IMG/VR virus record: IMGVR_UViG_3300011441_000012
Span: 1 to 56,858 of that record
Reading direction: 5' to 3' (one strand)
Length of the DNA: 56,858 nucleotides
Origin: a virus
Taxonomy: Duplodnaviria; Caudoviricetes
Shown: positions 1 through 56,858 of the stretch, in pieces
Layout: each line of letters opens with the position of its first letter
Position numbering within the stretch: the first letter of the stretch is position 1
Notes under the pieces: generated by a model
What the model was told of the DNA's origin: nothing
Database searches by the model: none
The model's input: the letters and a program-made list of their open reading frames with translations, nothing else
Made by a program: the position numbers and the translations under genes

Positions 1-1980
1 GGGGGTTACGCCTTCACCCAGTTTGGATTCGGCTTGCGATTTTTCGGCTTCTTGCACAGCCTCCACTTCCGGTTTTTCAGTTCGTATCGCTTCACTTGGC
101 TTCCTTGGATTGTAAACATTCGCCGTGTTGTAGGTTCTCTCAACTCCATTCGCAGCCCTTACCGTGATTCTTGGATTCAGTTTGTAGTTTACGGTGGAAA
201 AATAATTCTCCGCTTTTACGAGAGTCCACGGAGAAGGCATGTCAGCCGGACCTCCAGCGAACCCGAGTTTAATTTGCTCTCCGGGTTTGATCGTGTTTCC
301 GTCAGCGTCGAGAAGCGAGCCTTCTTCTGTGGCTCGAATATGCGATGCGTGCTCCTGAGGTTTCACCTCCCCACCCCTGCCTTGGATTTGGGGAGGGGGT
401 TGGGATTTACCCTGCTTTTCAGCGTATGGTTTTAGCACCTCCCAATCCAGTGCGCCATTTGGAAGGTCGAAAATTCTAGGGTCTTGGCGAACTTTACGGC
501 GCTCCAAGTCAGTCATGTCAGCCCAAACTGACTCCCTCAGTTTTTCGTCTGGAGCCACCTTGGATTCAGCCACAGCCCTTAGCTCTTTCTGCTTCTTCAT
601 CGCTTCGTTGGCTGATGTAAAACGGTAGGAGTCGGCGGCGTTCGGCTCGTAACCAACAATGCGCTCTTTTCCGTATCGCGAAATCTCTTTGACGGGACGA
701 ATGCTCCCTTTGGCTATGGCTTCCTGAATTGTTATTCCGTGGGCGTCGAGAAATTCTTGTTCGGCGGGGAGGAGTTTTCGACTTCTTTTTTCTCCCGCGA
801 TAGCAGGAACTCCAACTGCCTTCGGTGCATCTCCAGCCGGGCGTGCGCTGGCTCCAGTAGCGACTTCGCCGCCAGCACGTTCTCCAGCAATTCTCCCAGC
901 GGTTGACTGCGATATATCGCGTCCACCCATTTTATCACTTCGGATAGGCTCTCCAGTTGTTGATCCAGTATCTCCAATTCGTGTTGCTTGTTCATTCGGT
1001 GGTCCTTTCACCTCCCCACCCTGCCTCTTTTCACCTGATTCTGTCAAGAGGGAAGTGGGTTGTTTCCGAATATCCGTGGTCGGGTCCACCGGCAAAGTCT
1101 CGCGCAAGCCGGATTCGGTTTGAGCGGGGGTGAGAGCCGCCGCCTCGCGTTGCGCCTCCTCGAAGGTGAACTCCTGCGGCTTGACCTCTCGCGCAACAGG
1201 CTCAATCTCACGGGTCACTGGAGCAATCCTGTCCTGCGGGGGCATCGTAGCCTCCAGCGCCCTCTGGTTCGCCAAGTCCAGCTTCGCATCCCCCTGTCGC
1301 AGGGTTTCAATCGCAGGCTCAACCTTCTTGTAACCGTGCTTGGCGGCTGCTCCAGCCCCTAGGAACGATCCAAAGGCAATCGCCGCGTCTTTGGAAGCCT
1401 TTCTCCAATCGGACTTCTGGAACGCATCCCAAGCCTCCTCGGCGCTCTGGAAGCCTGCCCGTAGCATGTCATACGTCCACTTGGCGTACACGGCAGGGGC
1501 AAGCGGTGTGGCTGCTAGTCCCATCTGAATCGCCCCCGGCCCTGACGTGAAGAAGTTAGCCACTCCACCGACCAATTCCTCCAAGCCTTCCAATCCCCCT
1601 GAAATCACCTTGGCGGGAGCGCTGGGAGCTTGCGGAACAATCGGTGGAGGCACTACCCCGCTGGTTTCGTAGTCGCTGGCAAAACGGGTTGCGTCCAGCC
1701 CTTGCTGAATCACTTCAGGAGTGATCCCAAGTTTCGGAAGTTCAACTCCGGGATGGGTTGCCACGTCGCCAAATCCTTCCTGAACGGATTCCCGGAACGT
1801 GGCGCGGGCAACGTCCATCTCAGGCAATGCTGCCCGTGGACCGCCGCGAGTGGTGGTTGTGAGGTCGGGAAGATTGCGAACGCTTGGGTCAGAGATATTC
1901 TCGAAAGAATCCTCCAGAGCCTCCTCAAACGTGAAAGTCTTGGGCGCTTCCTGAACCTCCTCGAAAGTGAAAGTTGGCAT
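1..1980 (-). CDS. Giant internal virion/ejection (polyvalent-type) protein, N-terminal part; runs off the left edge
   Basis: Absent from the ORF track. Manual translation from ATG 1980 (MPTFTFEEVQEAPKTFTFEEAL...) gives 660 open codons to position 1. It follows the other internal-protein genes and probably continues as 56858..53497. Confidence 0.8.
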   Translation of the reverse strand, partial: MPTFTFEEVQEAPKTFTFEEALEDSFENISDPSVRNLPDLTTTTRGGPRAALPEMDVARATFRESVQEGFGDVATHPGVELPKLGITPEVIQQGLDATRFASDYETSGVVPPPIVPQAPSAPAKVISGGLEGLEELVGGVANFFTSGPGAIQMGLAATPLAPAVYAKWTYDMLRAGFQSAEEAWDAFQKSDWRKASKDAAIAFGSFLGAGAAAKHGYKKVEPAIETLRQGDAKLDLANQRALEATMPPQDRIAPVTREIEPVAREVKPQEFTFEEAQREAAALTPAQTESGLRETLPVDPTTDIRKQPTSLLTESGEKRQGGEVKGPPNEQATRIGDTGSTTGEPIRSDKMGGRDISQSTAGRIAGERAGGEVATGASARPAGDAPKAVGVPAIAGEKRSRKLLPAEQEFLDAHGITIQEAIAKGSIRPVKEISRYGKERIVGYEPNAADSYRFTSANEAMKKQKELRAVAESKVAPDEKLRESVWADMTDLERRKVRQDPRIFDLPNGALDWEVLKPYAEKQGKSQPPPQIQGRGGEVKPQEHASHIRATEEGSLLDADGNTIKPGEQIKLGFAGGPADMPSPWTLVKAENYFSTVNYKLNPRITVRAANGVERTYNTANVYNPRKPSEAIRTEKPEVEAVQEAEKSQAESKLGEGVTP
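361..1026. repeat. Direct repeat pair TTTCACCTCCCCACCC(C)TGCCT at 361-382 and 1006-1026
   Basis: 16 nt are identical; the copies lie 645 nt (215 codons) apart and both encode GGEVK in the giant ORF. Confidence 0.85.
732..995 (-). CDS. Nested (overprinted) 87-aa helical/coiled-coil protein
   Basis: Leu/Glu-rich heptad-like sequence with GGAGGTGAAAGGA upstream and the TTGAC-N8-GTGAA motif 35 nt upstream. The host frame over this stretch is low-complexity G/A/T/R. Confidence 0.65.
   Translation of the reverse strand: MNKQHELEILDQQLESLSEVIKWVDAIYRSQPLGELLENVLAAKSLLEPAHARLEMHRRQLEFLLSREKKEVENSSPPNKNFSTPTE
1030..1047 (-). promoter_or_regulatory. TTGAC-N8-GTGAA motif, copy 1
   Basis: Minus strand reads TTGACagaatcagGTGAA. 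Confidence 0.75.
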
Positions 1981-1983
1981 GGT

Positions 1984-2871
1984 TCACTGGACGAATTTCT
2001 CGCCGTCCCAAGTGGCTTCGCCTCGTGGAGTAAGGTAGCGTTCGCCCTTCTTCAGTTCAGCTTTTGACTTTGGCATGGGCGGAGCAGTCTTTGCGGCTTG
2101 TTCGGAGAGCGCCGGCGCTGGAGTCGCGCCCGAAACCGGAACTTTCCGCGTCACCGTCCGCTCCCCCTGCGCTGGCATTGCCGGTTGGTAAGCCTGCGCC
2201 TTTTTGTCGGGAATTAGCCAGTCAAAGTATTCGCCGCCGCGCTGCTTGGCTGGACTCGCTGGAATCTCAGGCGTGGCTTCAGTCGCCGGTAGGGTTTCCC
2301 GGATGGTGTCCATCTGAGGTCCGGGGTTGACCAGAGTTTTGGTTTCCCCGGTCAACGGGTTGATGGAAACAACTGAGCCTCCCGGACCACTTCGGATTTG
2401 ATTCGGCTTTTGAGGGGGTGCGGCAGGCTCACGCAACACAGTGGTTGCTCCAGTCACGGGATTCACCATTGCCAACCCGCCACCGGGCAGCGACCTGACC
2501 TGATTCGCCTGCGGCTTCGCCGGCATGAACGATTTCCTCACCGTCGCCAAGTCCTTCGCATTCCTCGCAAACATATCCTCCGCGAGTCTCGCCTGAAATT
2601 CCGGCGTCAACCTATTCTCCCTCGCCGCCTGCTGATAAAGCATCCTCCCCTTGAACTGCCTCGCCGCGTCAATGTAATCGTTGGCCGCTTCGACTGCCTG
2701 AGTCGGATTCTTGGTCTGCGTGAAGAAATACTTGTACACCTCGGCCATTTGCGCCGGGGAAATGCTCTGCGATGGCATTGTGTCCTGCGCTTGAACCGGC
2801 TCGTATTCAAAGCGGGTTTCCTTGCGCTGGCCCGTTACCGGATCGAATGAAGATGTGTAGCCTTCAGCCAT
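1984..2871 (-). CDS. Probable internal virion/ejected protein with repeated 'NQVRSLPGG..VNP.TG.T' units
   Basis: 295 aa, Pro/Ala/Gln-rich, located between the tail genes and the giant gene. Confidence 0.55.
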   Translation of the reverse strand: MAEGYTSSFDPVTGQRKETRFEYEPVQAQDTMPSQSISPAQMAEVYKYFFTQTKNPTQAVEAANDYIDAARQFKGRMLYQQAARENRLTPEFQARLAEDMFARNAKDLATVRKSFMPAKPQANQVRSLPGGGLAMVNPVTGATTVLREPAAPPQKPNQIRSGPGGSVVSINPLTGETKTLVNPGPQMDTIRETLPATEATPEIPASPAKQRGGEYFDWLIPDKKAQAYQPAMPAQGERTVTRKVPVSGATPAPALSEQAAKTAPPMPKSKAELKKGERYLTPRGEATWDGEKFVQ

Positions 2872-4280: not shown

Positions 4281-4853
4281 ATGAATGAACTCTCCAAGGC
4301 GGCGGCGATTCTCGGTCGTAAAGGTGGCAAGGCTGGAACGGGTGCGTGCAAGGCGCGACCGGACACGGCAAGCAAAGCGGCTCGCATTCGCTGGGGCACT
4401 TTCGAGGAGCGATTTTGGCACAAGGTTGACAAGCGCGGACCTGATGAATGTTGGACGTGGATTGGAGCTAGAGCGGGAGGAAGGTATGGCTCTATTTGGT
4501 TTCGCAAAAGATGCACTCCATCGAACCGCGTTTCTTGGATATTGCACAACGGAGAAATCCCCGAAGGTCTTCATGTTCTTCACAAGTGCGATAACCCGCC
4601 GTGTGTGAATCCCAACCACCTGTTTCTTGGGACTGTGAAAGACAATCTTCAGGATGCTTCCAAGAAGGGGAAGTTTTATCACAGAAAAGGTGAGGGCAAC
4701 GGCCACACAAAGGTTTCCGAGAGCGACGTAAAGAAAATCAGAGAAGCCTTCAAATCGAAGTCCAGAACACAAGTCCAACTTGCAAGTGAGTTCGGACTCA
4801 CGCAGGGTCACGTCAGTTCGATTATTAGAGGTGTTAGCTGGAGTCATGTTTAG
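4281..4853 (+). CDS. HNH homing endonuclease (HNH_3-like) with C-terminal HTH
   Basis: FW.KVDK...ECWTW, VLHKCDNPPCVNPNHLFLGT..DN motif; antisense to the late operon. Confidence 0.9.
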   Translation: MNELSKAAAILGRKGGKAGTGACKARPDTASKAARIRWGTFEERFWHKVDKRGPDECWTWIGARAGGRYGSIWFRKRCTPSNRVSWILHNGEIPEGLHVLHKCDNPPCVNPNHLFLGTVKDNLQDASKKGKFYHRKGEGNGHTKVSESDVKKIREAFKSKSRTQVQLASEFGLTQGHVSSIIRGVSWSHV

Positions 4854-5902
4854 ATGGGCTGCATTCGCATCCGGTTCGATCCAAAGATGTGGCGTTGGAT
4901 TGCAGGGTTAGACTTCCCTAAATAATGGTCGCACTGGCCAAACAGAATCCTCAACGCGCTCGCGTGCTTCTTATCGCTCAACTGCTGCGCCCCCGGAGTA
5001 TCCATGCGCCCATAACGAATACTCATGCACTCGTCAATAAGGCTTGGAATGGACATGATCCTCAAATAGTCCGAGTCACAAGTCACCGGCACAAAATCCA
5101 ATTTGCACATCGCTGAAACCTGAAGCGTGGTCGAGGTCGTCGTGCAACTGTTGCAGCAATTCTGAGGCAGGCCGTTCACGTAGTATTTACGATAGCTCGC
5201 CGTAGTCTCCGCAGGTCCCATGACCAGCAACGGCGTCTCCACTCCCGTCGTCGGATCGACCTGGAAAAATTCGACCTCGCCAAAGGTCTTCTGCTTTTGC
5301 GCTCCCGTAATCTCAGTCCACAGCACGGCGGTATCCGTGAACGGGCTGCTCAAGGTCATGCCCTCGCCCAGACCGGAGTTACCAGTGCCAGCGTCCACGA
5401 ATCGGACTACCGCGCCGTTGCTATCCTTACCTTGAATGAGACAGTGGCGGCCCACGTCGTTGGGATTACTGGCATAAGCACGCACGTACTGTGCGGTGCC
5501 AAGCAACGGCTCAAACGTGACAACCGTCTCGCGCTCAAATGCAGTAAGGGGGCCGCACGGTTCAGCGAGCGAGCCGCAGCCCTTGGGGTGGAGTCCGGGA
5601 CCGAATTGGAGGTACTCATAAAATTCGTTCTCCATCCTTACGGGATGCTTGCAGACATCCATCAAAATCACGCGAGCCACTTCCTGAGGCGTCACAATCG
5701 TCGGCTCGGCTCGTGAAACGGTGAAAGCCATCTTTGCCCATGAGCCGTACCAACCCTCATCTGGGGCGAGCGGGTCGTTGATAAGGCGTTCCATAGCCTC
5801 ATTCACGGCTGCCATAATGGAAGTAATGTCAGTCGAGCATAATCCGATGGCGCTCGGACCTCCGCTTGATCTAAAATCCAATAATCTCGGGCGTGCTGGC
5901 AC
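4850..5902 (-). CDS. Tail tubular protein A / head-tail adaptor-like protein
   Basis: 350 aa; N-terminal 'AVNEAMERL' helix typical of adaptors; position. Family call is an inference. Confidence 0.5.
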   Translation of the reverse strand: MPARPRLLDFRSSGGPSAIGLCSTDITSIMAAVNEAMERLINDPLAPDEGWYGSWAKMAFTVSRAEPTIVTPQEVARVILMDVCKHPVRMENEFYEYLQFGPGLHPKGCGSLAEPCGPLTAFERETVVTFEPLLGTAQYVRAYASNPNDVGRHCLIQGKDSNGAVVRFVDAGTGNSGLGEGMTLSSPFTDTAVLWTEITGAQKQKTFGEVEFFQVDPTTGVETPLLVMGPAETTASYRKYYVNGLPQNCCNSCTTTSTTLQVSAMCKLDFVPVTCDSDYLRIMSIPSLIDECMSIRYGRMDTPGAQQLSDKKHASALRILFGQCDHYLGKSNPAIQRHIFGSNRMRMQPI

Positions 5903-18996: not shown

Positions 18997-19385
18997 TTTC
19001 GGGAGTATTTACCGCCGAGACTCCGCCACTTTTTCAGGAATGTATTCCAAGTGTCGTAGAAAATATCGTTCACTTTTGCCGTTCCCAAGGCAACACCTTC
19101 GACAATCTCGACGGTGTAACCCGGCACAACCGCCGTGTAGTACGTGTTCCAAGCGTAGTCATCGAAGAACACCACCCAGCAAGGGCCGGTGTAATCAACC
19201 CCATTTATCGGTCGTGTGACTCCATTCGGCACCCACAAGTAGGCGTAAGCCGGTCCAACGGTGTAGCTCTGATCTTCGATGAACTCCACGAACGATCGCT
19301 CTCCGATGTTGTCGGAAGCGGTCAAGGTCGCCGCGTTGATCGTGAGGCTCACCGAGAGCAGTAGTAGTGCGAGTAGTGTTTTCAT
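18993..19385 (-). CDS. Secreted protein
   Basis: Sec signal MKTLLALLLLSVSLTINA. Confidence 0.6.
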   Translation of the reverse strand: MKTLLALLLLSVSLTINAATLTASDNIGERSFVEFIEDQSYTVGPAYAYLWVPNGVTRPINGVDYTGPCWVVFFDDYAWNTYYTAVVPGYTVEIVEGVALGTAKVNDIFYDTWNTFLKKWRSLGGKYSRK

Positions 19386-20155
19386 TAGTTCGTTGTGACA
19401 GTTACGCCGCGACCTATCAAGGTGGCTTTATCGGCAATTCCCTGCCCTGATGGGGCGGCATTGGTGCCACCGTTCAATAAAACTGTTCCGCTTACATACG
19501 ATGGTTCTGCAACCAATAGAGCTAGAACAGAATTTACCGTGGCGGCATTTAGGGCATTGTTATTCAACGTGTAATTTTTTCCATTGTCAGGAAACTCAGC
19601 TCCCAAATTTATGGTTGTAAGGCTTGTGTTGTTGGCGATTGTTATGTGGTCGAAAACATCCACCAAAGATGGAAAACTCAGCGAAGTTAGCGATGTGTTT
19701 CCGATAGAAAGAAAAGAATAACAAGTTTGAAGCGATGAGAAGTTCAGGCTCGTAATTAACGGACAGGTTTGTATGTATAATGGGCCGTTTATTTCCGTTG
19801 CACCGCTAATGTTAATCGTGGTTAGTGCTGCACAAGCCTGAAACCTAACTTGGCCATTCTGAAAATCCGCGTTTGGTGCCGAAAATGTAATCAGTTGGTC
19901 TGCGTCATTTACGAAGATAGATTGTGGTCCGATTTCAAAGCTAACCGCAGTTATGTTTTCGAGTGGCAGGTTTCCCCAGTCTTTCTCTGTTGCTAACACC
20001 ACTACATCCATGATGCTATTAGCTCTTGGAGTCCACAGCATCCCAGTATTCTGAACCTCCAGCGTCCAATCCCCAGGCGTCAGGCTGTTCGCCCGCCACA
20101 GGTTTCCGTTGGTGGTGTCCTTGTAAATCTGGCCTATGAAATCAGGGGTTATCAT
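19385..20155 (-). CDS. Virion appendage protein with LRR/receptor-L-like solenoid
   Basis: TPDFIGQIY.DT anchor motif, repeats such as LTSLSFPSL, C-terminal LIGRGVTVTTN; AT-rich. Confidence 0.65.
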   Translation of the reverse strand: MITPDFIGQIYKDTTNGNLWRANSLTPGDWTLEVQNTGMLWTPRANSIMDVVVLATEKDWGNLPLENITAVSFEIGPQSIFVNDADQLITFSAPNADFQNGQVRFQACAALTTINISGATEINGPLYIQTCPLITSLNFSSLQTCYSFLSIGNTSLTSLSFPSLVDVFDHITIANNTSLTTINLGAEFPDNGKNYTLNNNALNAATVNSVLALLVAEPSYVSGTVLLNGGTNAAPSGQGIADKATLIGRGVTVTTN

Positions 20156-21239: not shown

Positions 21240-22793
21240 TTAAGCCTCAGTCCACGGCATACCGATGCTGTTGCACGCGGTGCCGGTGAGCGTGATGTTG
21301 GGGTTGGCATTCGCCCAAGTTCCCAACGCGCCGACTTTGGCGGTCAATTCCACAACCAGGTCCGCCAGCGTTGACGTACCGGTGATGGCCGCGTGAACAA
21401 TGGGAATGCCATTGCACTGAATCGAGTTGGCGATGATCTCGTAGGTGCCACCCGCAGAGAGAAGCGGGAGAACCGTGAGAACCACGTCTTCGGTCGGGCA
21501 GGCGTCGTTGGCCGAGGAGTAATCCTGAGCCGGATAGCCGGGGTCTGCCGAACAGGTCGGGAGATCAACCACACACGCGGGTTCGCGCAAGGTGAGGAAC
21601 AGTTCCGCGAACTCAGGGTACTTTGCCTGGGTCGCGTAGGAGAAGTCGGCAATAAACTTTCCCTTGTTCTGGCGCTCGTTGTTGACCGCAATCGGATTTC
21701 CGTTGTCGTCCACGCCGCAGGTCATGTTGTTCGTGACGAACTTCCACTTGCCACCGAAATCCCGCGCTCCGTAGCTCATCATCGGGTTGATGCTCGTGGT
21801 GTCGCGCACCAGCGAGGTCATGGCCTTGCGATGCCAGATGAAGTTGGCCTGATAATGGGCATTGATGAAGTCGTCATTGAGGACTTCCTTGATGCCTTCC
21901 GTCGCCGCCGTGTTGTTGTATGGGAACACGAGACGCAACTGATGCGTGCCATCGGCGTTCTGCGTTTGCAGGTCGAGGAAACGCAGGGGCATACAGTCCG
22001 CACGCATACCGTAGTTGCCGATCTTTCCAGTCCAGCCGTACTTGTAGTAATCGCTGCCGGCAGAATCGAAGTCTTTGAAGCGCCAGAACTCGCTCAACTG
22101 GCTGTTACCCTCGATCATGTCGTTGATGGACTCGGGATCATTCACGAACTCCAGCATGGGCGCGGAGTTCTTGTCAATGTCCTTGCCCAGTGCGCCGAGG
22201 AGCGTCTGAGGCATGACCCGGCGTTGCAGGTGGCGCGGGGACATCTTGGAAGTCGGCTTGGTGCTGACGTTCAGGATCGTGCCCGTGGAATCCCAATAAG
22301 CCGTGATCGCGGTGAGCGTGTTGTTCGCCGTGGCCCACTTCTGACCGGCAATGCGAACTGCTTCGTGGCGCAGGCGGTCGGAGTTGATAATCGTGGTCGA
22401 GCGCCGGAGCACTTCCACGAAGGCCGCATACTGTTGCTTGGCGCGGTCGGCGCTGAGAATCAAGTCCCAGCAGAAAATGGCAGTCTCGAAGGCTTTGCGC
22501 TGGAGGCGGTAGCTGTCCCGCGTGAAACCCATCCCGATGACTTTCGAGGAGGGATCGCAAGGGGTGCCCACGCAACCGGAGGCTTCGACGTTTTCCCACG
22601 CGCCGCTCAGGTCGGGGAAGACGTTTTCAAAACGGTCGAACGTATGTTCGACCCCCGCTTGAGTTGGAAATTGTCCAGTGGAGACGTGCCCGATCCACGT
22701 ATCGTAGGGGTGCAGGCTGCGAAGAATCTCGTCGTCCAGATGTTCTGACCGGCGACTCAGAAAGTCACCGAATTTTGTGCAAGGAATGGCCAT
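21240..22793 (-). CDS. Major capsid protein with C-terminal extension
   Basis: 517 aa; follows portal, scaffold and GroES; strong codon bias; own promoter and 3' hairpin. Confidence 0.8.
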   Translation of the reverse strand: MAIPCTKFGDFLSRRSEHLDDEILRSLHPYDTWIGHVSTGQFPTQAGVEHTFDRFENVFPDLSGAWENVEASGCVGTPCDPSSKVIGMGFTRDSYRLQRKAFETAIFCWDLILSADRAKQQYAAFVEVLRRSTTIINSDRLRHEAVRIAGQKWATANNTLTAITAYWDSTGTILNVSTKPTSKMSPRHLQRRVMPQTLLGALGKDIDKNSAPMLEFVNDPESINDMIEGNSQLSEFWRFKDFDSAGSDYYKYGWTGKIGNYGMRADCMPLRFLDLQTQNADGTHQLRLVFPYNNTAATEGIKEVLNDDFINAHYQANFIWHRKAMTSLVRDTTSINPMMSYGARDFGGKWKFVTNNMTCGVDDNGNPIAVNNERQNKGKFIADFSYATQAKYPEFAELFLTLREPACVVDLPTCSADPGYPAQDYSSANDACPTEDVVLTVLPLLSAGGTYEIIANSIQCNGIPIVHAAITGTSTLADLVVELTAKVGALGTWANANPNITLTGTACNSIGMPWTEA

Positions 22794-23082: not shown

Positions 23083-23363
23083 CTGAGAACTGCAATTACA
23101 TCCGTCGCCTCCACCAATTTCATCCGATCCTTCGCCTCGTGAATCCAGCGTCCACGATGCGCGTTGACCACAACCCTATCGCCTCTTTTGAAATCGTAGG
23201 CTATGAGGTTGCCTTGCTTGTTCGGTTTCCAGAGTCCGAAGGTGACAACTTTCCCAGTCGTCGCCCGCTCCTGCGACTTCTCGGGAATGAGGATACCTCC
23301 GATTTGTTCCTCGGGGCGGTCCATACAGAGGAGGACTTGTCCGGCTAGGGGGCGGATTTTCAT
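23079..23363 (-). CDS. groES: Co-chaperonin GroES (Cpn10)
   Basis: MKIRPL..VL, GGILIPE mobile loop, GKVV..G, K.GDRV, DVIAVL. Confidence 0.9.
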   Translation of the reverse strand: MKIRPLAGQVLLCMDRPEEQIGGILIPEKSQERATTGKVVTFGLWKPNKQGNLIAYDFKRGDRVVVNAHRGRWIHEAKDRMKLVEATDVIAVLS

Positions 23364-24712
23364 CCCTTAAACTGCCTTTCCAGCGCGTCGAGTTCTTGGT
23401 CCGCCGTGAGTTCACCCTTCACCGCGCTACCACCGTCCGCAGCGCGTGCGCCATCAGGTCCGCTCGCCTCGTAATCCTTGAGTGACTTCTCCAATTCAGC
23501 CACGCGGGCCAGTAGCCCCTTGTTTTGATGCGCCAATCGGTCGTGGTTCGCCGCCTTGTTACGCACGATGCTGTGGAGCTTCACAATCTGCTCCTGCGTG
23601 AACGGTTTCTTGGAGTTGATCGCCTCCTGAAACGCCTTGGGCAGCATGGCGATTTTCTCAGGGCTGATGTCCTGCGGGAACATTGCCAAGTCAGCCAGAG
23701 CCGATCCCCGGTCGAACAGGGTGTTGCCTTCGTTGTCGCCTTCCACCTTGTTGAACCAGTTGGGATACTTGGTGGCGAGAGCCTCGTTTGTCTGCCGCCA
23801 CAGTTTGGCGCGGTTCTGCTGGAATTGCTGCTGCTGCTCCTCACGGGTCTTGGCAAACGTCTCCGCGTCCTGCTTCGCTTTCGCCTTGGCAGCCTGCGTC
23901 TGCTCGAATAGGTGGCTGATCTGGTTGATGTGGCGCTTCACTTCCTCCTTATCCTCGGGGAACAGGCGGTTGATTTCCGTGCGCCGCGCTGCCGGCTCAA
24001 GGCTGGCGAAGTATTGCAAGTCAGCTTGTGTAACTTCTCGGGTTACAGATTCTCCGGTCTTCGGGTCTTCCACGGTCATGGACAGACCTTTGAGTTCCCG
24101 GATCGCGTTGCTCCACGCCTGCTCGTAGGGTTTCCAGTACTTTTCCTGGTAATCTGCGTCCAGTTCGTAGTCCTTGAACTTGATCGCCGCTTCGAGTTCC
24201 TGATTGCGCTTCTCAATCGCGGCTACGCGCTCTTGATTCGCCTTGTCGAGTTGCGGGGTGGTCGCTTCGAGTTCCTGAACCTTTTTCTCAAGGGTGGTCA
24301 GCTTTTGGAGCTTGGGTTCGTACTCCTCCTTGACCTTTTTCTTGAGGGAGTCGTAGGCGGTTCGGAGTTCGGCGGCTTTGACGGGGGGCTTTTCATCTGG
24401 CTTCTTGCCATCGTCCTTGGGCGCAGGGGGAACAATGGAGTCGTCCTCCAAGTTCGTAGAGGAGGCGTCGTCCTTCTCCGCAGGCTTCGCAGCGGTAGGG
24501 TTTTGGTCATCCTTCTTCGCCTCCTTTTTCGGTGCGGGTTTTCCAGACTCCATCGTGTCCAGTTCCGCGAAGGCGTCGGCGTAGGCGTCCTGAGAATCAG
24601 GAGTGGATGGTGGCGTTGGCGCTGCCGGTTTCGCATTGGGCGATGGCGCGGGTGCGGCCTTCGGTGCGCTGGTTGTTGGTGCCGGTGGTGGGGCGGTAGG
24701 GGCTGCTGGCAT
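23360..24712 (-). CDS. Capsid scaffolding protein
   Basis: Pro/Ala/Lys/Glu-rich coiled coil between portal and capsid. Confidence 0.7.
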   Translation of the reverse strand: MPAAPTAPPPAPTTSAPKAAPAPSPNAKPAAPTPPSTPDSQDAYADAFAELDTMESGKPAPKKEAKKDDQNPTAAKPAEKDDASSTNLEDDSIVPPAPKDDGKKPDEKPPVKAAELRTAYDSLKKKVKEEYEPKLQKLTTLEKKVQELEATTPQLDKANQERVAAIEKRNQELEAAIKFKDYELDADYQEKYWKPYEQAWSNAIRELKGLSMTVEDPKTGESVTREVTQADLQYFASLEPAARRTEINRLFPEDKEEVKRHINQISHLFEQTQAAKAKAKQDAETFAKTREEQQQQFQQNRAKLWRQTNEALATKYPNWFNKVEGDNEGNTLFDRGSALADLAMFPQDISPEKIAMLPKAFQEAINSKKPFTQEQIVKLHSIVRNKAANHDRLAHQNKGLLARVAELEKSLKDYEASGPDGARAADGGSAVKGELTADQELDALERQFKG

Positions 24713-49900: not shown

Positions 49901-50448
49901 TCTGCGCCAGCTAGCTTTTGAGCGATCAATGGACCGTGGCGACTATCACGCCGCGAATATCGCTTGTGCTCAAAAGCAATGGGCTGAAATGCGATTGGCG
50001 GACATGACAGAAACAAACGAGGACGGCAGGGCAATTCAGAAAACAATTAAATACAAAAAGGAAACTAAATGAAAGTTGTAATCAAATGTCCATACTGCGG
50101 GATTGAACATGAGCGTGAATATGACGTTGAAATCGTGCGCCCTAAGGTAGAAAACTGCGACTGTGAATCCGGGGGCTGCGATAAGTATTTCGCTGTGACA
50201 GTTTGGTTCAAGCCGGAGGTGCAAGCCTTCAAGGTGCAACCCGCATGACCCCCATCACCCCCGAAATGGTTGACCGCTTTGCCGTAGCAATGCGCCACGG
50301 CTATTACTGGTGCATCCCATGCCAAAAGATCGTCGAACCCGTGAACCAAGGCGAGGCTAACCTGCAACGCTGCCCGGATTGCGACTGTGCGCGGATAGCG
50401 TTTTATCCGGCAGTCCTGCCCGGTTCAAAAGACGACGAAAACATTTGA
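46955..50448 (+). other. Early small-gene block: 46955-47392, 47415-47663, 47689-48027, 48106-48321, 48357-48989, 49018-49251, 49367-49639, 49636-49845, 49842-50072, 50069-50248, 50245-50448
   Basis: Familiar phage early-gene motifs (WASYLINGD, GCCHDE..HFPEL..LIKWHL, FYSY.T.VA..YSKTTSKH, HTP.PW); A/C-rich leaders. Confidence 0.7.
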
Positions 50449-50463
50449 CTCCCCTCCCCAAAC

Positions 50464-50481
50464 TTGACAGAATCCAGTGAA
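50464..50481 (+). promoter_or_regulatory. TTGAC-N8-GTGAA motif, copy 7
   Basis: TTGACagaatccaGTGAAaag, nearly identical to copy 1. Confidence 0.8.
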
Positions 50482-50489
50482 AAGTAAAT

Positions 50490-50867
50490 ATGAAGATGCC
50501 GAAGTCAACGAAAGCTGAAACTGAAGGAAAGTCCACGCGGTTTCTGTTGAGCGAACGGGAGCGAGTTCGGCGGTCATTGCACCGCCGCAGCCGGCAACGG
50601 CGAGAGCGAACAAGTAGCGAGATGCAGATTTCTATCACCGGAGGTCGCAAGGCCGAGCGAGGGACAAACGAATCAACTGAGCCTGATATTTCGGCATCTT
50701 CTGTTGTTTACCTAGCCCGCGCAAACGGCGCACTGGTGGAATCACATCGAAACCGAAATGGCGATTTGCCGGAAGGAATGGAGATGGCCGCATTCATGGC
50801 TACGTTCCATCCAACCTTCAAAACAAAAAAGGAACACAAAGAACATACCCGAAAAGAAAGTTTATGA
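50490..50867 (+). CDS. Hypothetical basic protein
   Basis: ORF directly after the motif; reading frame uncertain. Confidence 0.35.
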   Translation: MKMPKSTKAETEGKSTRFLLSERERVRRSLHRRSRQRRERTSSEMQISITGGRKAERGTNESTEPDISASSVVYLARANGALVESHRNRNGDLPEGMEMAAFMATFHPTFKTKKEHKEHTRKESL

Positions 50868-50990
50868 GCGCGTGGCGTCGAGAGACGTATCTGAACTCGG
50901 GAGGCATTTGCCATTTGGCTTTTGCGCCCGTGACTTGTCCGGCTGCAAAGAAAGACCCGGCACGCGCTCAACCAAATAACACACACCACT

Positions 50991-51872
50991 ATGAGCAAAC
51001 TAAAAGCAAAACCACCAGAAGAAGTAACCCCAGGCAAAACCAAAGGCATGATCTTCGGCGCATCAGGCGTAGGCAAGACATGGTTCACACTGACATTCCC
51101 AAATCCCTACTACCTCGACACCGAGGGCGGGGCTGATCTGGCGCACTATCAAGATCGCCTAAAGAAATCGGGCGGTGCTTACCTCGGACCAAAAGACGGC
51201 ACGCTTGGATTTGATTTCGTCATTGAGCAGATGCAGGCGCTCGCCACAGAGAAGCACCAGTACAAGACGCTCATCGTTGATTCCATAACCAAGCTTTACC
51301 AGACGGCCATCGCCAACGAAGCAGAGCGGCTGGGCGACAAGGATGCGTTTGGCGCGTCCAAGAAACCCGCCATCGCTGGGATGCGGCGGTTGGTGAATTG
51401 GGCAATGAAGCTCGACATGAACATCTGGTTTGTGGCTCACGACACTGCCGAATGGGGTGTTGATTCCAAGACCGGACAGCGAACCGAAATCGGTCGCATC
51501 CCTGATGTATGGGACAAGCTGATTTACGAGCTACACCTGACGCTGCAAGCGGTCAAGCGCGGCCCGGCGCGGATCGCCATTGTAAAAAAGTCCCGGCTGC
51601 TCGGCTTCCCTGACTTGGAGAATTTCCCGCTGGAATACGCCGATTTCGCCAAACGATACGGCAAAGACTACATCGAATCCGAAACGCACCAAATTGTGTT
51701 TGCCACGACGGAACAGGTCGGTGAAATTGCGCGGCTGTTGTCTGTGGTCAAGGTGACAGAATCCGAGATCGAAAAAGTTTGGACGAAAGCCGGCGTCGAA
51801 AGCTGGAATGAATTGTCCACGGAACAGGCCGCCTCTACTGTCACTTGGCTCAAGAAGAAAATTGCCGCTTAA
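50991..51872 (+). CDS. AAA_24/Sak4-like ATPase (recombination)
   Basis: GASGVGKT, LDTEGG, LIVDSIT, FVAH motifs. Confidence 0.85.
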   Translation: MSKLKAKPPEEVTPGKTKGMIFGASGVGKTWFTLTFPNPYYLDTEGGADLAHYQDRLKKSGGAYLGPKDGTLGFDFVIEQMQALATEKHQYKTLIVDSITKLYQTAIANEAERLGDKDAFGASKKPAIAGMRRLVNWAMKLDMNIWFVAHDTAEWGVDSKTGQRTEIGRIPDVWDKLIYELHLTLQAVKRGPARIAIVKKSRLLGFPDLENFPLEYADFAKRYGKDYIESETHQIVFATTEQVGEIARLLSVVKVTESEIEKVWTKAGVESWNELSTEQAASTVTWLKKKIAA

Positions 51873-53496: not shown

Positions 53497-56400
53497 CTAT
53501 CTTTGCTTTTCTCTCTCCTCGTAAGTAGAAACGCCCGCACCAAAAGTCGCCAGAACTTGAATGATTGCCCCCTCGGTCATTCCGCGATCCCGCATCACTG
53601 CAATGATCTCTTGGACCGACAATGGCACTGGCACCCACGCTGCCGCCGCATCTCCAACAGTCACTCTCACCTTGCTCGCAGGCTTTCCAGAATCAATGGC
53701 GGCGATAGCCGTCTTAACTATGGCGGCAACGTCTGGTCTAGCCTTGTTCTTGAAGAAATTCCAAATGACCTCCCCAGTTCCAAAATCCGAAATGTCCCTT
53801 TCCTTTCCAGAGATTCCGGTTGTAATCCCCTTGGCGATCCTTGAACTAGATACGATAGGTTGCTGAAATCCAGCCCACGGATCAATGCGCGTGTCCCCGC
53901 GTACCACCTTTCCGAAATCGCTAGAGGTAGAATCAGACTCTCTTTTGTCTGAAAACAGACGGCTCACCGAATACAAGGCGACAATGGAAAGAATCCATCG
54001 GACATATTCCTTGGCCGCAATCTTTCTGGCGCGACCACTGCCGGCCCATTCTGCTGCTCCCCATAGCGGCTGACCACTCAACGCCTGAAGCCGGCTGGCC
54101 AACAGGCTTGGCGACCAGAGTAATTCCCCTGTCACCTTGGCCACGCCTCGATTAAGATTACCTCGCCCCGTGGAGATGTTGACCAGATTTCCGATCACCT
54201 TCAAATCCGCTGCGGTCGGCGGCCTATCCTTGAAATTAACCTCCAGTAGATAGTCCGCCAGATTGGCGCGGGCGGAGTTTAGGAATGTGATGAATGCTCG
54301 GTTGCTCATTCGCACTCCTTTGGCTCCGGCTTTTGGAATCGCAGTAACCCCCGTCTTGATTGCGCTTCCGGTTCTCATAGGAACTTCCGCCCATTCGTCC
54401 AGAATGGAATGCGCCCGGTCCTCCCATTTGGTAAAGTCCGTCGTCTTGAGTTCGGTGTACTGAATCCCCATCTGCTTATCTGCGCCACTTTTTGCATTTG
54501 GCCGGTTCGTGCGCCACTGCTCAATGCCATTCGCCACTGACTCGCTTTTCATGGCCTGATACATCTTCACGAAAGGATCACCCATAAGCCTCTTGGCGCT
54601 GGACGGGTTGGTGATGGCACGGCTCAGATTCGCCAGTAAGTAAAGAAACGCCTGTCTTGGGGCTGACAAGTCGAACGATGACAGAAGATTCACGAATGCG
54701 TCCTTACCCTGCCTGATTCCGTGCCACACCTTCTGCATTCGGCTGCGCTTCGCCATGTTGTCCAGATACAAACCATGCTTCCATTTATGCTTGATGGATT
54801 CCACCTCTCCAAGCAAACGCATGGCTTTTGCATCGCCTGAAATATCCAGCGGAGGCTTGCGGGTTCTGGGTCGAAAATCCCCACGGGCTAACTTTCCGCT
54901 CCAATATTCCAATTCCCGCGACAGTGCCGCCGTCTTGGCTTTCAAGGCTGTCACCGCAGGATCGCGCTCTGGCTTTGGCTGGAGTGCGTCCCTCGCCCAC
55001 TCTCTTTCCGCCTTGAGCGCGGCGATGGTCTGCCTATTCGCCTCCAGCTTTGCGCTGGTCAACTTCAAAGGCTGTTTGGATTTCGGGAAAATTTCTCCGG
55101 TTTCTTTTTGCCGTTCCAATACTGCGATCTGACGGGTGGTCGAGCGTTCCGCCAGTTCCACGCGCTGCAAGTCGGTCAACCCTGGTGTTTCAAAAATCGA
55201 ATCCCGATCTGCCTTGGTCTGCTTGTATTCCTGCCGCAGCGCCTCTAGCTCAAGATCAGTTGGAGCAGGGGTTTTGGATTTAACGATTTTCTCTCGCGTC
55301 TTTATTTCGTGCCGCAAATCTGCCAGCCGGTTGCGATAGTAGGTCTTTTGAGAATCCAACACTGATGCCAGATGCTTCGCCATGTCCGTCACTACCACGC
55401 CGAACTTTCGTTTCAGTTCATTCAACCGCTGAACCTCCCGCCGTGCCGCATCGCTCAATGGCCTGCGCTGGAGCCCAGTGGGCGGTAGCGGCTTTCTGGC
55501 TTCCACATCCATTTGATGCCCCATCAATCGGATTTGGGTTTTCAAATCGGCCACCTTTGCGGAAATTACATCCTCGCTTGGCAGTGTATATTTGCCACGG
55601 GTTGAGATGGCGTCCATTGCCTCCAGTCTGGTGATCTCTGGAATGAAGGCTTTTAGGATGCCCTGCACCTCGTTAATCAAGGCTTCACGATCTATCTTGG
55701 GGTCGCGCTCCACGATGGCCCGAACCAGTTTTTGCACGTCCGACGCCACCGCATCCAATTCCCCCTTTTTCACCTTGGCTTCGATGCTACTTGTCGCCAA
55801 ATCAATCTTCTCGGCGGCATCTCGCTTCTTGACCACCCGCTTTACCGCTTCCGCTTCCGGTGCAGTCTTTACAAACCCGGCGAGCCGTTCATCTACCATC
55901 GCGTTGCTCGCCTTAAAAATTTCATCCAAGTGCGGCTTTATCCATTCTCCAACGTCACGCACCATCGCGTCCGCCCACTTGACTGAATCCACAAGCCCGC
56001 GAGTAATCTTTGAGGCTCCGTAAATCGAAAGGTCTATCAACTCCACAGGGTCCACGCCCGCCCCGCGACCCATTATGCCTTTTTCCGCTGCCGCCTGACG
56101 CGCCTTGATTCTAGCTAGAGCGGAACTTCCCAACTCATCCATGTAGAGCGAGAACTTCTCTGCGTATTGAAGCACTTTAGGCGAGTATTGTGGCGCGGCT
56201 TTAGACTCCGCCAGTGCTCGGGCAATTTCCGCATCCACCAACTCGCGCCCCTTCTGCTCCAGTTGCGCCTCAAACTCCTTCAGTTTGGCTTGGTAGGCAT
56301 CATGGGTTTTCTGAATCTCAACCCGCTCCGCATCCGTGATCGGCCTCCAGTCGTTCGCCTCCCGTTTCTGCATCTCCAGAGCCGCAAGGCTGTAATCCTC

Positions 56401-56858
56401 GTTCAGCAATCTTTGCCGGGCTTGGCCGGCGCGACCCCACTCTGTCCCTGCCAGCTTGGTGATCTCCGATAGCTCCTTAATTTGGTTGCTCCAGTGCTGT
56501 GCGCGTTCTCCAGCCTCCTTGACCGCATCCATGCGCCCGTCGTCATAAGCCTGAGCCGCCTCTCGGGTCGCCTTTGCGTGTTCCACTTTCAGGTCCACCA
56601 GACGATGATCTAGAGCGAATACTTCCTCATCGGTGAGTTGCCGCGTCTTTTTTTTCAGATCAGCTATAAGCACATCCTGCCACGCCGGGTCCAAGTCAAT
56701 TTTCGCCATTACGCGATCCCACAGCGCTTGATTGCTCTGTCGCTGGGCCTCCAAAAGCCCCGGCATCCCAAGCCGAGCCAATTCCTTTTCCATCGCGGCA
56801 TTTTTGATTCCCGTGGCGGTTTGGAGATTGGGTTTGTACTCGGCTGGGACTGCGCCAC
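53497..56858 (-). CDS. Giant internal virion protein, C-terminal part (open at the right edge)
   Basis: Frame is open upstream of ATG 56793 to the edge; long helical protein with SSDFGK..G.TR.D..AG motif. Confidence 0.8.
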   Translation of the reverse strand, partial: GAVPAEYKPNLQTATGIKNAAMEKELARLGMPGLLEAQRQSNQALWDRVMAKIDLDPAWQDVLIADLKKKTRQLTDEEVFALDHRLVDLKVEHAKATREAAQAYDDGRMDAVKEAGERAQHWSNQIKELSEITKLAGTEWGRAGQARQRLLNEDYSLAALEMQKREANDWRPITDAERVEIQKTHDAYQAKLKEFEAQLEQKGRELVDAEIARALAESKAAPQYSPKVLQYAEKFSLYMDELGSSALARIKARQAAAEKGIMGRGAGVDPVELIDLSIYGASKITRGLVDSVKWADAMVRDVGEWIKPHLDEIFKASNAMVDERLAGFVKTAPEAEAVKRVVKKRDAAEKIDLATSSIEAKVKKGELDAVASDVQKLVRAIVERDPKIDREALINEVQGILKAFIPEITRLEAMDAISTRGKYTLPSEDVISAKVADLKTQIRLMGHQMDVEARKPLPPTGLQRRPLSDAARREVQRLNELKRKFGVVVTDMAKHLASVLDSQKTYYRNRLADLRHEIKTREKIVKSKTPAPTDLELEALRQEYKQTKADRDSIFETPGLTDLQRVELAERSTTRQIAVLERQKETGEIFPKSKQPLKLTSAKLEANRQTIAALKAEREWARDALQPKPERDPAVTALKAKTAALSRELEYWSGKLARGDFRPRTRKPPLDISGDAKAMRLLGEVESIKHKWKHGLYLDNMAKRSRMQKVWHGIRQGKDAFVNLLSSFDLSAPRQAFLYLLANLSRAITNPSSAKRLMGDPFVKMYQAMKSESVANGIEQWRTNRPNAKSGADKQMGIQYTELKTTDFTKWEDRAHSILDEWAEVPMRTGSAIKTGVTAIPKAGAKGVRMSNRAFITFLNSARANLADYLLEVNFKDRPPTAADLKVIGNLVNISTGRGNLNRGVAKVTGELLWSPSLLASRLQALSGQPLWGAAEWAGSGRARKIAAKEYVRWILSIVALYSVSRLFSDKRESDSTSSDFGKVVRGDTRIDPWAGFQQPIVSSSRIAKGITTGISGKERDISDFGTGEVIWNFFKNKARPDVAAIVKTAIAAIDSGKPASKVRVTVGDAAAAWVPVPLSVQEIIAVMRDRGMTEGAIIQVLATFGAGVSTYEEREKQR

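What the first reader, a model, noticed from the sequence alone, without database searches (positions are those of the whole stretch)
361..1047. Overprinted gene on an in-frame, repeat-flanked cassette inside the giant virion gene
Seen: ORF 732-995 (87 aa, helical) lies in another frame on the same strand as the open 660-codon giant ORF. It has the phage motif (1030-1047) and a strong SD (GGAGGTGA) upstream. The SD is part of a 16-nt direct repeat (1006 and 361) whose copies are exactly 215 codons apart, so recombination would add or remove the nested gene without breaking the host frame. The host frame over the nested gene is low-complexity filler. Inference: a moron-like swappable slot hidden in an essential structural gene and expressed separately from it, for example for exclusion or anti-defence.
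Basis: partly seen in the sequence, partly recalled or inferred. Interest (0 to 1): 0.8.

Follow-up and report, generated by a model that had tools for sequence, protein, structure and literature searches.

The report
Candidate overlapping gene in phage linker
A small helix-coding reading frame hidden in the flexible linker of a giant phage gene shows real statistical signs of being, or having been, a gene, but its expression is unproven and several of the signals first cited for it are ordinary.

Summary
The ORF (995->732, minus strand, 87 aa, +1 frame of the host gene) and the exact 16-nt repeat (361-376 / 1006-1021, 645 nt apart) are there. The host gene spans the contig ends and is 1787 aa long: a conserved N-domain (aa 1-306), a hypervariable mosaic middle (aa 307-~668) and a conserved C-part.

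Ordinary:
- ORF length: 13 such ORFs in 30 kb of genes.
- Openness, given the host protein: P 0.08-0.46.
- The 'SD': 15 nt from the ATG, in a phage where 22 of 36 gene starts have no SD-like motif.
- The 'phage motif': two copies only.

Not ordinary:
- Host-frame GC3 over the linker is 0.29, the lowest in the genome.
- The +1 frame reads as an amphipathic helical hairpin.
- A distant relative (L004) has an equivalent +1 ORF at the same place, with a significant amphipathic signal (P 0.002) but no sequence similarity.

The repeat looks like a duplicated module-junction motif. The in-frame cargo between its copies is a protein module shared with two other giant proteins. In two metagenomes an alternative allele starts at codon 307, not at the repeat.

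Odds: live overlapping gene about 0.42, codon-usage by-product 0.33, out-of-frame relic 0.18.

The parts
1..1980 (-). First 660 codons of the giant gene (ATG at 1980). It runs off the window start and continues at the other end of the record.
   Evidence: P0002 bridges the two ends with 8 residues (TPEIKGMG). About 22 nt are missing, and the total is 1787 aa.
53497..56856 (-). Conserved C-part of the giant gene (1119 codons plus stop), beginning with the family-wide junction GMGGAVPAEYKP.
1063..1980 (-). Conserved N-domain, aa 1-306, ending in DPTTDIRK.
   Evidence: Shared with P0003-P0006, P0008, L004 and L002. Contigs of runs X3 and X6 match the window down to 1063 and then diverge.
1..1062 (-). 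Hypervariable mosaic middle region (aa 307-660, plus about 8 codons missing from the record).
   Evidence: Its length and content differ in every homologue. Loose ends at 1063 appear in 2 of 4 runs. The record's own ends fall at its right boundary.
1006..1021 (-). 16-nt repeat, copy 1 (GGGTGGGGAGGTGAAA; GGEVK, aa 321-325). It holds the +1-frame TGA that closes the nested frame upstream.
361..376 (-). 16-nt repeat, copy 2 (GGEVK, aa 536-540). It lies inside PPPQIQGRGGEV, which resembles P0003's junction into the C-part (PPPQIQGMGGAI).
   Evidence: and (12-aa match, 75% identity, E 0.024 in a database of 11 sequences).
781..1020 (-). Low-complexity linker, host aa 321-400, with GC3 of 0.287.
   Evidence: It holds the lowest of 1025 windows of 88 codons, and the three lowest of 1898 windows of 25 codons.
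732..995 (-). Nested +1-frame ORF, 87 aa. Helices at residues 2-29 and 34-74. The tail 75-87 is read out of frame from module A.
388..786 (-). Module A, host aa 399-531: a host-frame protein domain shared with other giant proteins.
   Evidence: 82% identity over 135 aa to P0007; 31% identity to P0009 (E 5e-14).
1..360 (-). Module B plus tail linker, host aa 541-660. No detected relative.
1027..1048 (-). Two-copy motif CTTGACAGAATCAGGTGAAAAG, starting 14 nt inside the allele-specific segment.
50463..50484 (+). Second copy of the motif, in the region upstream of the plus-strand replication genes (the AAA_24 gene is at 50991).

Best explanation
The finding lies at the start of the swappable, mosaic middle region of a 1787-aa giant phage protein that is probably virion-borne. 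That protein has a conserved N-domain, variable modules joined by linkers, and a conserved C-part.

The 16-nt repeat is a duplicated module-junction motif. It is related to the family-wide GMGGA(V/I)P junction and brackets [linker + module A] in phase. This part is shown or well supported.

The 240-nt linker is most likely dual-coding (inferred). The giant gene reads it as a disordered Gly/Ala/Thr/Arg-rich spacer. The +1 frame encodes a small soluble amphipathic helical hairpin of about 75 structured residues. The hairpin would be translated from its own ATG at 995 on the long late mRNA, by the SD-independent initiation that most genes of this phage seem to use.

By the codon-usage criterion the small frame would be the older frame and the giant gene's spacer would be the overprint. 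A positional counterpart exists in a distant relative. The function of the small protein is unknown, and nothing here points to exclusion or anti-defence specifically.
For: - Host-frame GC3 over aa 321-400 is 0.287. Other segments: N-domain 0.637, module A 0.526, C-part 0.609. Twenty other genes range 0.47-0.76.
- This stretch holds the lowest of 1025 windows of 88 codons and the three lowest of 1898 windows of 25 codons. The dip starts at repeat copy 1 and ends where module A begins.
- Because of the dip, 74% of nested codons 1-72 have A or T at position 2, against 47% in the tail.
- The nested frame has the GC1/2/3 pattern of a gene (0.61/0.31/0.70).
- Of the 13 same-strand nested ORFs, it is the only one whose own frame scores better on synonymous codon usage than the host frame: +0.081 against -0.104.
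- Amphipathic helical moment, with host protein and codon set kept: P 0.054 (mean) and 0.034 (maximum) by synonymous permutation. P 0.003 and 0.0003 against genome codon usage.
- Among 50 alternative-frame open stretches of the window, this one has the 2nd highest moment and by far the lowest host GC3, 0.30 against a next-lowest of 0.46.
- Replicate. In L004 the giant gene's N-domain is 36% identical by tblastn. The linker just after that N-domain holds the longest +1 open stretch of the 1788-codon gene, 111 codons, or 99 aa from its ATG. Host GC3 there is 0.34-0.36.
- That L004 stretch ranks first of 50 stretches in four relatives' loci for moment, for low GC3 and for permutation P (0.002-0.003).
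- The permutation test is roughly calibrated: 5 of 100 stretches reach P <= 0.05.
- AlphaFold2 on single sequences gives pLDDT 80.7 for the window ORF and 86.0 for the L004 ORF, both helical.
- The start context of the nested ATG scores at the 88.7th percentile of 451 internal ATGs and at the 40th percentile of 30 real starts scored leave-one-out.
- The ATG is the 4th codon after the upstream +1 stop.
Against: - No expression evidence: no RNA run holds the stretch.
- No homologue of the 87-aa product was found:
  - 5.8 billion predicted proteins of 47-153 aa;
  - six-frame tblastn of 50,697 phage records at E <= 1;
  - IMG/VR peptide patterns;
  - Pfam, PHROGs, NCBIfam and PADLOC;
  - ESM Atlas;
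  - relatives' proteins and loci.
- The window ORF and the L004 ORF are not similar (E 4.5).
- ORF length and openness are expected by chance given the host protein.
- The window's amphipathic P of about 0.02-0.05 does not survive correction for 50 stretches. Another, junk-like stretch scores P 0.002. The tail of the null is about 3 times heavier than uniform: 3 of 100 stretches reach P <= 0.006.
- The good synonymous score of the +1 frame follows partly from the G-starting codons of the host frame.
- The ORF has no stop at the end of its helical part. It reads 13 codons into module A.
- Other family members (P0003-P0006, P0008) have short or Pro/Glu-rich linkers with no room for such an ORF.
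- Distant relatives L002 and L003 show no GC3 dip.
- No promoter or terminator, and no special RNA fold (z -0.55).
- High single-sequence pLDDT is usual for any Leu/Glu-rich amphipathic sequence. No negative control was folded.
Confidence: 0.42

Rival explanations
1. By-product. The linker is only a disordered spacer of the giant protein. Its A/T-ending, mostly rarer codons have another cause. One candidate is a rare-codon cluster that slows translation after the N-domain folds. Another is a patch of foreign, lower-GC DNA in a recombination-prone region. A hydrophilic spacer with few T at codon position 2 is automatically open in +1. A/T at position 3 then automatically yields Leu/Glu/Lys/Gln-rich, helix-looking text.
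For: - Openness is expected: P 0.08-0.46.
- 13 ORFs of this length occur in 30 kb of genes.
- Host-frame synonymous usage is at the 1.7th percentile, meaning rarer codons: GGA 10 of 16, GCT+GCA 10 of 12, ACT+ACA 5 of 6, GAT 4 of 4.
- The dip follows the N-domain in both phages, as a folding pause would.
- Low-GC3 genes exist in this genome (19385-20155, GC3 0.47).
- L004's middle region is somewhat low in GC3 outside the +1 ORF too (0.45-0.48).
- The window's amphipathic P is not significant after 50 tests.
- No homologues and no expression signals.
- That rare codons cluster at domain boundaries is recalled from the literature and was not checked here.
Against: - It does not explain why, with host protein and codon set held fixed, the order of T-ending and A-ending codons gives helical periodicity in +1. 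In L004 this reaches P 0.002-0.003, the best of 50 stretches. In the window it reaches P 0.02-0.05.
- GC3 of 0.12 over 25 codons is lower than a merely foreign or rare-codon patch would be expected to give. The adjacent module A of the same cassette is at 0.53.
- The nested ATG has a start context typical of real starts.
Confidence: 0.33
2. Out-of-frame relic. The linker DNA once coded a helical (coiled-coil) segment or small gene in what is now the +1 frame. It was captured, or frame-shifted, into the variable region. It was tolerated because helix-coding DNA read one base off gives a stop-free, hydrophilic, disordered spacer. The nested ORF is a recent fossil and is not expressed for its own sake.
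For: - The same compositional evidence as for the best explanation.
- The ORF's 3' end is not clean. The helices end at the module A boundary and the frame runs on to a chance stop.
- The region is a demonstrated site of mosaic exchange.
- Out-of-frame remodelled genes are described, and their alternative-frame parts are reported as short and disordered. Source: Watson et al. 2021, PMC8788219; I saw the abstract and section headings only.
Against: - No donor was found in any frame.
- It needs two independent and recent events at the same place, in two phages whose N-domains are only 36% identical.
- The ATG four codons into the open stretch, with a good start context, would be a coincidence.
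Confidence: 0.18
3. Frameshift isoform. The +1 frame is reached not from its ATG but by a +1 ribosomal slip at GTG-AAA-G (K325). This site lies 2 nt after the SD-like GGAGG of repeat copy 1 and just past the +1-frame TGA. The product would be a 416-aa protein, the N-domain plus a helical tail, made beside the full-length protein.
For: - Geometry read. AAA-G allows tRNA-Lys to re-pair on AAG. An SD-like element sits 2 nt upstream. The last +1 stop lies inside the repeat, so the open +1 stretch begins exactly at the slip site.
- That an SD 3 nt upstream stimulates +1 shifting in prfB is recalled from the literature.
Against: - There is no in-frame stop or rare codon at the A site. The next codon is GGA, 28% of Gly codons.
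- No stimulatory RNA fold.
- L004 has no like motif at the start of its +1 stretch.
- This phage's genes make little use of SD pairing.
Confidence: 0.05

Closest known systems
Embedded same-strand overlapping genes of phages, e.g. lambda Rz1 inside Rz (recalled, not checked here)
   Same: A small ORF lies wholly inside a larger gene of the same strand, in the +1 frame, on the same late transcript.
   Different: Rz1 is a secreted lipoprotein that works with Rz and is conserved with it. Here the product is a soluble helical hairpin with no relatives. The host gene is a giant mosaic protein, and expression is not shown.
Overprinted viral genes and the codon-usage test for the ancestral frame (Pavesi, Magiorkinis & Karlin 2013, PMC3744397; abstract read)
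   Same: Two frames share one stretch. One product is ordered and the other disordered. The frame whose codon usage is closer to the genome's is taken as ancestral.
   Different: Here the small ORF, not the large gene, has the genome-like usage, so the giant gene's spacer would be the overprint. The overlap is only about 80 codons, too short for their formal test, which I did not run.
Out-of-frame remodelled genes (Watson, Lopez & Bapteste 2021, PMC8788219; abstract and headings read)
   Same: A short, disordered part of a protein is derived from the alternative frame of other coding DNA.
   Different: No donor gene was identified here. Their cases come from E. coli gene-family networks.
Polyvalent proteins and DarB-like giant injected proteins (Iyer et al. 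2017, PMC5512222; abstract read)
   Same: A giant phage protein encoded beside structural genes, with a variable set of modules on a conserved scaffold. One homologue (P0003) has a weak match to PHROG 'DarB-like antirestriction' (E 6e-7).
   Different: No recognised enzymatic or binding domain is present in the window's protein or in P0007 and P0009. Packaging and injection are not shown.
Morons (extra genes with their own promoter and terminator in phage late regions; recalled)
   Same: An extra coding unit of deviant composition sits in a late-gene block, and the segment that carries it (the variable middle region) differs between related genomes.
   Different: It lies inside a gene, not between genes. 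No promoter or terminator was found.

Membership tests
Embedded overlapping (overprinted) gene | An ORF wholly inside another gene, in another frame | tested here: met
   995->732 on the minus strand, in the +1 frame of the host frame 1980->1.
Embedded overlapping (overprinted) gene | The ORF is longer than the host sequence would give by chance | tested here: not met
   13 such ORFs in 29,946 nt. Permutation P 0.08, 0.18 and 0.46.
Embedded overlapping (overprinted) gene | Constraint on the nested frame is visible at the host's synonymous sites | tested here: inconclusive
   The GC3 dip is the most extreme in the genome. Amphipathic order gives P 0.02-0.05 in the window, not significant over 50 tests. 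In L004 it gives P 0.002-0.003.
Embedded overlapping (overprinted) gene | The nested frame is conserved across relatives | tested here: inconclusive
   No relative carries this linker. L004 has a positional counterpart without sequence similarity. Three other runs are 100% identical over the ORF, so they give no information.
Embedded overlapping (overprinted) gene | Evidence of translation | not testable with these tools
   No RNA holder was listed. There are no proteomic data.
Moron | Own promoter and terminator | tested here: not met
   0 promoter-like and 0 terminator-like sites in 600-1200. The two-copy motif has no -10 partner (read).
Moron | Present or absent between otherwise related genomes | tested here: inconclusive
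   An alternative allele starts at codon 307 in 2 of 4 runs, but its content is unknown beyond 30 nt.
Repeat-flanked in-frame cassette (module shuffling at boundary sequences) | Direct repeats in phase at both ends of a module | tested here: met
   A 16-nt exact repeat, 645 nt apart. Copy 2 lies in a degenerate copy of the C-part junction.
Repeat-flanked in-frame cassette (module shuffling at boundary sequences) | Variants that differ exactly by the segment between the repeats | tested here: not met
   No joint in the 4 runs laid. The only observed breakpoint is at 1062/1063. The data are low-depth contigs, so this is a weak negative.
Polyvalent / DarB-like injected giant protein | Several domains of disparate known activities in one polypeptide | tested here: not met
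   No Pfam, PHROG, NCBIfam or PDB-sequence match for the window's protein.
Polyvalent / DarB-like injected giant protein | Variable domain architecture on a shared scaffold, encoded with virion genes | tested here: met
   Neighbouring genes include a tail assembly protein (phrog_9600, 3e-46) and an Ig-domain protein.
prfB-type programmed +1 frameshift | A slippery codon followed by a stop or a hungry codon, with an SD close upstream | tested here: not met
   The SD-like element and AAA-G are present, but the next codon is the common GGA and there is no stop.

The most novel reading that the evidence does not exclude
A position-conserved but fast-evolving overlapping gene lives in the first linker of the giant injected-type protein gene of a group of uncultured freshwater-sediment phages. 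The +1 frame would encode a small amphipathic helical-hairpin protein and would be the older frame. The giant gene would have extended its reading across it as a disordered spacer. The small gene would then travel with the swappable module block that recombines at short junction repeats.
Probability: 0.35. Interest if true: 0.75.

Novelty: new member of a known kind. Interest (0 to 1): 0.55.

Why it matters
Gene callers never report embedded ORFs, so protein databases are blind to them. If this one is real, it is a case where a small gene hides inside the disordered spacer of a giant mosaic phage protein and is detectable from codon statistics alone. It would suggest a general recipe: look for sharp GC3 dips in the linkers of large phage genes.

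It would also be an unusual polarity of overprinting, with the large gene overprinting the small one.

Independently of the nested ORF, the work defines a new family of giant phage proteins of about 1300-2200 aa. They have a conserved N-domain, a conserved C-part beginning GMGGA(V/I)P, and a hypervariable modular middle. That middle is polymorphic within natural populations and breaks metagenome assemblies.

If the ORF is a by-product, the case is still a useful warning. A hydrophilic spacer with A/T-ending codons can mimic a convincing helical protein, up to pLDDT 80-86.

Tried and rejected
HOMOLOGY OF THE NESTED ORF. Every search was empty. Foldseek against BFVD gave 0 of 500 listed matches at E <= 0.001, only generic helical hairpins. 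The Atlas 'recognition' score of 2174 is not evidence, because the bona fide conserved module A scores lower, at 1899.

COMPENSATED-FRAMESHIFT IDEA. The idea was that the nested peptide equals an in-frame helix of a relative. There was no similarity to P0001-P0009 or to any locus.

HOST-FRAME CONSERVATION OF THE LINKER. The apparent extension of the P0007 alignment into the linker is not significant on its own. The linkers of the window and L004 are dissimilar (E 2.2).

OTHER NEGATIVE CHECKS.
- Tandem-repeat origin of the linker: none was found by TRF at score 30. YTGGAG is enriched, with 18 matches against 4.9 expected in 3.5 kb.
- RNA structure around the repeat and motif: z -0.55.
- Module B against P0003: not significant.

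MORE DNA OF RELATIVES.
- INPHARED: none.
- Genome contigs: none true. The 14 pattern matches were chance; tblastn confirmed none.
- Metagenome contigs: only the distant L002 and L003.
- IMG/VR: only L004/L009, plus the C-part relatives L005-L008.

SEQUENCING RUNS.
- No RNA holder was listed among 24 runs.
- I laid 4 of those 24 (X3-X6). No joint, meaning no 645-nt deletion, was seen. Parts without cover prove nothing.
- The 30-nt loose-end sequence was not found in IMG/VR or in the homologues.

TOOLS AND SOURCES I COULD NOT USE.
- Complex prediction was not used; I make no binding claim.
- Supplementary files of papers were not consulted.

A slip of my own: a notebook entry says 23 of 36 starts lack an SD-like motif. 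The recount is 22 of 36.


Full report
WHAT THE WINDOW IS.
The window is a whole IMG/VR virus record of 56,858 nt, classed linear, with a CheckV completeness of 100%. It has almost no matches in Pfam or PHROGs. The few matches are:
- a tail assembly protein (phrog_9600, E 3e-46), an Ig-domain protein and a weak virion structural hit on the minus strand;
- a primase, an AAA_24 ATPase and a radical SAM protein elsewhere.

The genes near the finding are on the minus strand.

The 660-codon open frame 1980->1 runs off the start of the record. A 1119-codon frame, 56856->53497, runs in from the other end. Protein P0002 comes from another assembly and is 100% identical over 310 + 1119 residues. It joins the two frames through eight residues, TPEIKGMG. 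So the genome is circular or permuted, the record lacks about 22 nt, and the giant protein has 1787 residues.

ARCHITECTURE OF THE GIANT GENE.
Seven longer homologues were found.
- P0003-P0006 and P0008, together with locus L004 (a 1787-aa ORF), share the N-domain up to DPTTDIRK (aa 306).
- They also share the C-part, from GMGGA(V/I)PxE(F/Y)xP onwards.
- What lies between differs in each, from about 80 to 600 residues of unrelated linkers and domains.
- P0007 and P0009 are different giant proteins. They share only host aa 399-531 of the window, which I call module A: 82% identity over 135 aa, and 31% identity at E 5e-14.

None of these proteins has a known domain. The one exception is a weak match of P0003 to the PHROG family 'DarB-like antirestriction'. 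In concept the nearest known kind is the polyvalent, injected giant protein of Iyer et al. 2017 (abstract read). Membership is not met, because no recognised domain is present.

THE MIDDLE REGION IS POLYMORPHIC IN NATURE.
Twenty-four public runs hold part of window 1-2000. All are freshwater sediment, groundwater or similar, and none is on record as RNA. I laid four of them, X3-X6, which are kept as contigs at depth 2-5.
- In X3 and X6, contigs match the window from 1230/1241 down to 1063. They then continue for 186 and 100 nt with the same unlike sequence.
- Read in the host frame this gives ...DPTTDIRK|APMEVQGQAE. An alternative allele therefore begins exactly at codon 307.
- The record's own ends fall at the other boundary of the variable region, GEGVTP|...|GAVPAEY.
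- No contig joined across the 645 nt between the repeats.
- Contigs of X3 and X4 cover the whole nested ORF, and X5 covers it apart from a 21-nt gap (803-823). All do so without a single difference, so they say nothing about selection.

THE REPEAT.
The 16-nt repeat is exact, in phase and beyond chance. Copy 2 lies in PPPQIQGRGGEV. This resembles P0003's junction into the C-part, PPPQIQGMGGAI (E 0.024 in a database of 11 sequences).

I read the repeat as a duplicated module-junction motif. Short shared boundary sequences of this kind would let modules be gained or lost in frame. But the in-frame cargo between the copies is the spacer plus module A. And the only breakpoint seen in nature lies 41 nt upstream of copy 1.

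SIGNALS CITED FOR THE NESTED ORF THAT ARE ORDINARY.
- Length: 13 same-strand alternative-frame ORFs of 87 aa or more occur in 29,946 nt of 21 genes.
- Openness, given the host protein: P 0.08-0.46. A spacer with almost no T at codon position 2 cannot make +1 stops.
- SD: GGAGG ends 15 nt from the ATG. Of 36 gene starts, 22 have no SD-like motif within 30 nt. Upstream regions are A-rich instead.
- Motif: two copies only, with no -10 partner. No promoter or terminator was found.

WHAT IS NOT ORDINARY.
- Host-frame GC3 falls to 0.287 over aa 321-400, and to 0.12 over 25 codons. On both sides it is 0.5-0.64.
- This is the most extreme dip in the genome. It starts at repeat copy 1 and ends where module A begins.
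- Its effect is that nested codons carry A or T at position 2, which gives Leu, Ile, Glu, Lys and Gln.
- The +1 frame shows a gene-like GC1/2/3 pattern.
- Alone among the 13 nested ORFs, its own frame has better synonymous usage than the host frame. That last point is partly forced by the G-starting codons of the host.

With host protein and codon set held fixed, the order of the synonymous codons gives a higher helical hydrophobic moment than 95-98% of permutations. Across all 50 alternative-frame open stretches of the window this P is not significant. The test is calibrated there, with 2 of 50 stretches at P <= 0.05.

The nested ATG has a start context like that of real genes. It is at the 88.7th percentile of 451 internal ATGs.

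AlphaFold2 gives a two-helix hairpin at pLDDT 80.7. The confident structure ends where module A starts.

A REPLICATE IN A RELATIVE.
In L004 the N-domain is only 36% identical to the window's.
- The spacer after that N-domain holds the longest +1 open stretch of the whole gene, 111 codons.
- The stretch coincides with a GC3 dip to 0.34, reaching 0.13-0.27 locally.
- I chose it by place, length and GC3. I then tested it with the statistic already fixed on the window. It gave P 0.002-0.003.
- Among 50 stretches in four relatives' loci it ranks first for moment, for low GC3 and for P.
- Its product is also predicted helical, at pLDDT 86.0.
- It is not similar to the window's product.

In both genomes, then, the most gene-like alternative-frame stretch lies at the same place in the same gene. 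Distant relatives L002 and L003 show nothing of the kind. The other homologues have linkers that are too short or of another type.

WEIGHING.
The shared place and the ordering signal argue for a cause that acts on the +1 frame. Against this stand:
- the absence of any homologue or expression evidence;
- the unclean 3' end of the ORF;
- the post-hoc choice of the window's test;
- a null with a tail somewhat heavier than uniform (3 of 100 stretches at P <= 0.006);
- a credible non-coding cause for A/T-ending rare codons just after a domain, such as a translational pause or foreign DNA.

Embedded ORFs are not called by gene finders. Their absence from databases of predicted proteins is therefore expected even if relatives exist. 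The six-frame searches are the more telling negatives.

My odds are:
- live overlapping gene, 0.42;
- by-product, 0.33;
- out-of-frame relic, 0.18;
- +1 frameshift isoform, 0.05.

By the codon-usage criterion of Pavesi et al. 2013 (abstract read), the small frame would be the ancestral one and the giant gene's spacer the overprint. I did not run their formal test.

VERDICT.
- The kind is known (embedded overlapping genes; mosaic giant phage proteins). The members are new.

Noticed in passing
window 1 and 56858 (record ends): Both ends of the record lie inside the giant gene, at the boundary between its variable middle and its conserved C-part. About 22 nt (8 codons, TPEIKGMG) are missing. P0002 from another assembly bridges them. 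The 'linear' record is therefore a circular or permuted genome broken at a polymorphic site.
   Followed up: yes
window 1062/1063: Contigs of two runs (X3, X6) share the N-domain and then carry an unrelated sequence from codon 307. This alternative allele of the middle region co-occurs with the window's allele in X3.
   Followed up: partly
window 1377-1441 and 127-199: Dense patches of differences sit in otherwise identical contigs: 17 in X3 within 65 nt of the N-domain, and 13 in a 151-nt X5 contig. This suggests mosaic recombination between strains inside the giant gene.
   Followed up: no
window 1154-1170, 1919-1935, 1955-1971: A three-copy direct repeat encodes the peptide (T)FTFEE(A/V). 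It occurs twice at the very N-terminus and once at aa 271-276 of the giant protein, and is also present in P0003 and P0005. Its meaning is unknown.
   Followed up: no
whole window, gene starts: 22 of 36 gene starts have no SD-like motif within 30 nt. Upstream regions are A-rich (34% A, 21% G). This points to a host with SD-independent initiation. The host is unknown.
   Followed up: partly
window 4850-5902 (-), +1 frame from host aa 89: A second alternative-frame open stretch (76 codons) has a high amphipathic moment (0.983; permutation P 0.002) but normal host GC3 (0.65) and a junk-like sequence. It served as a warning about the test's tail.
   Followed up: partly
window 19385-20155 (-): This gene has clearly deviant codon usage (GC3 0.47; the lowest synonymous-usage windows outside the linker). 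It is possibly of foreign origin.
   Followed up: no
window 24188-24203 / 24263-24278 and 33104 / 40866: These are the two other exact direct repeats of 16-17 nt in the window. The first pair is only 75 nt apart, inside gene 23360-24712.
   Followed up: no
window 21393-22748 (+): A 451-aa ORF lies antisense to, and almost coextensive with, gene 21240-22793 (517 aa, GC3 0.76). It is probably a by-product of high GC3.
   Followed up: no
window 50368-50990: This is a region of about 600 nt ahead of the plus-strand replication genes. It holds the second motif copy, preceded by CCCCTCCCC. ORF 50490-50867 in it has a junk-like Arg/Ser/Glu-rich product and no family match, so it may not be a gene.
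   Followed up: partly
P0003 aa 811-999 (homologue of the C-part): A weak match to PHROG 10089 'DarB-like antirestriction' (E 6e-7). This is the only functional hint for the giant protein family. The window's own C-part does not reach E 0.01.
   Followed up: no
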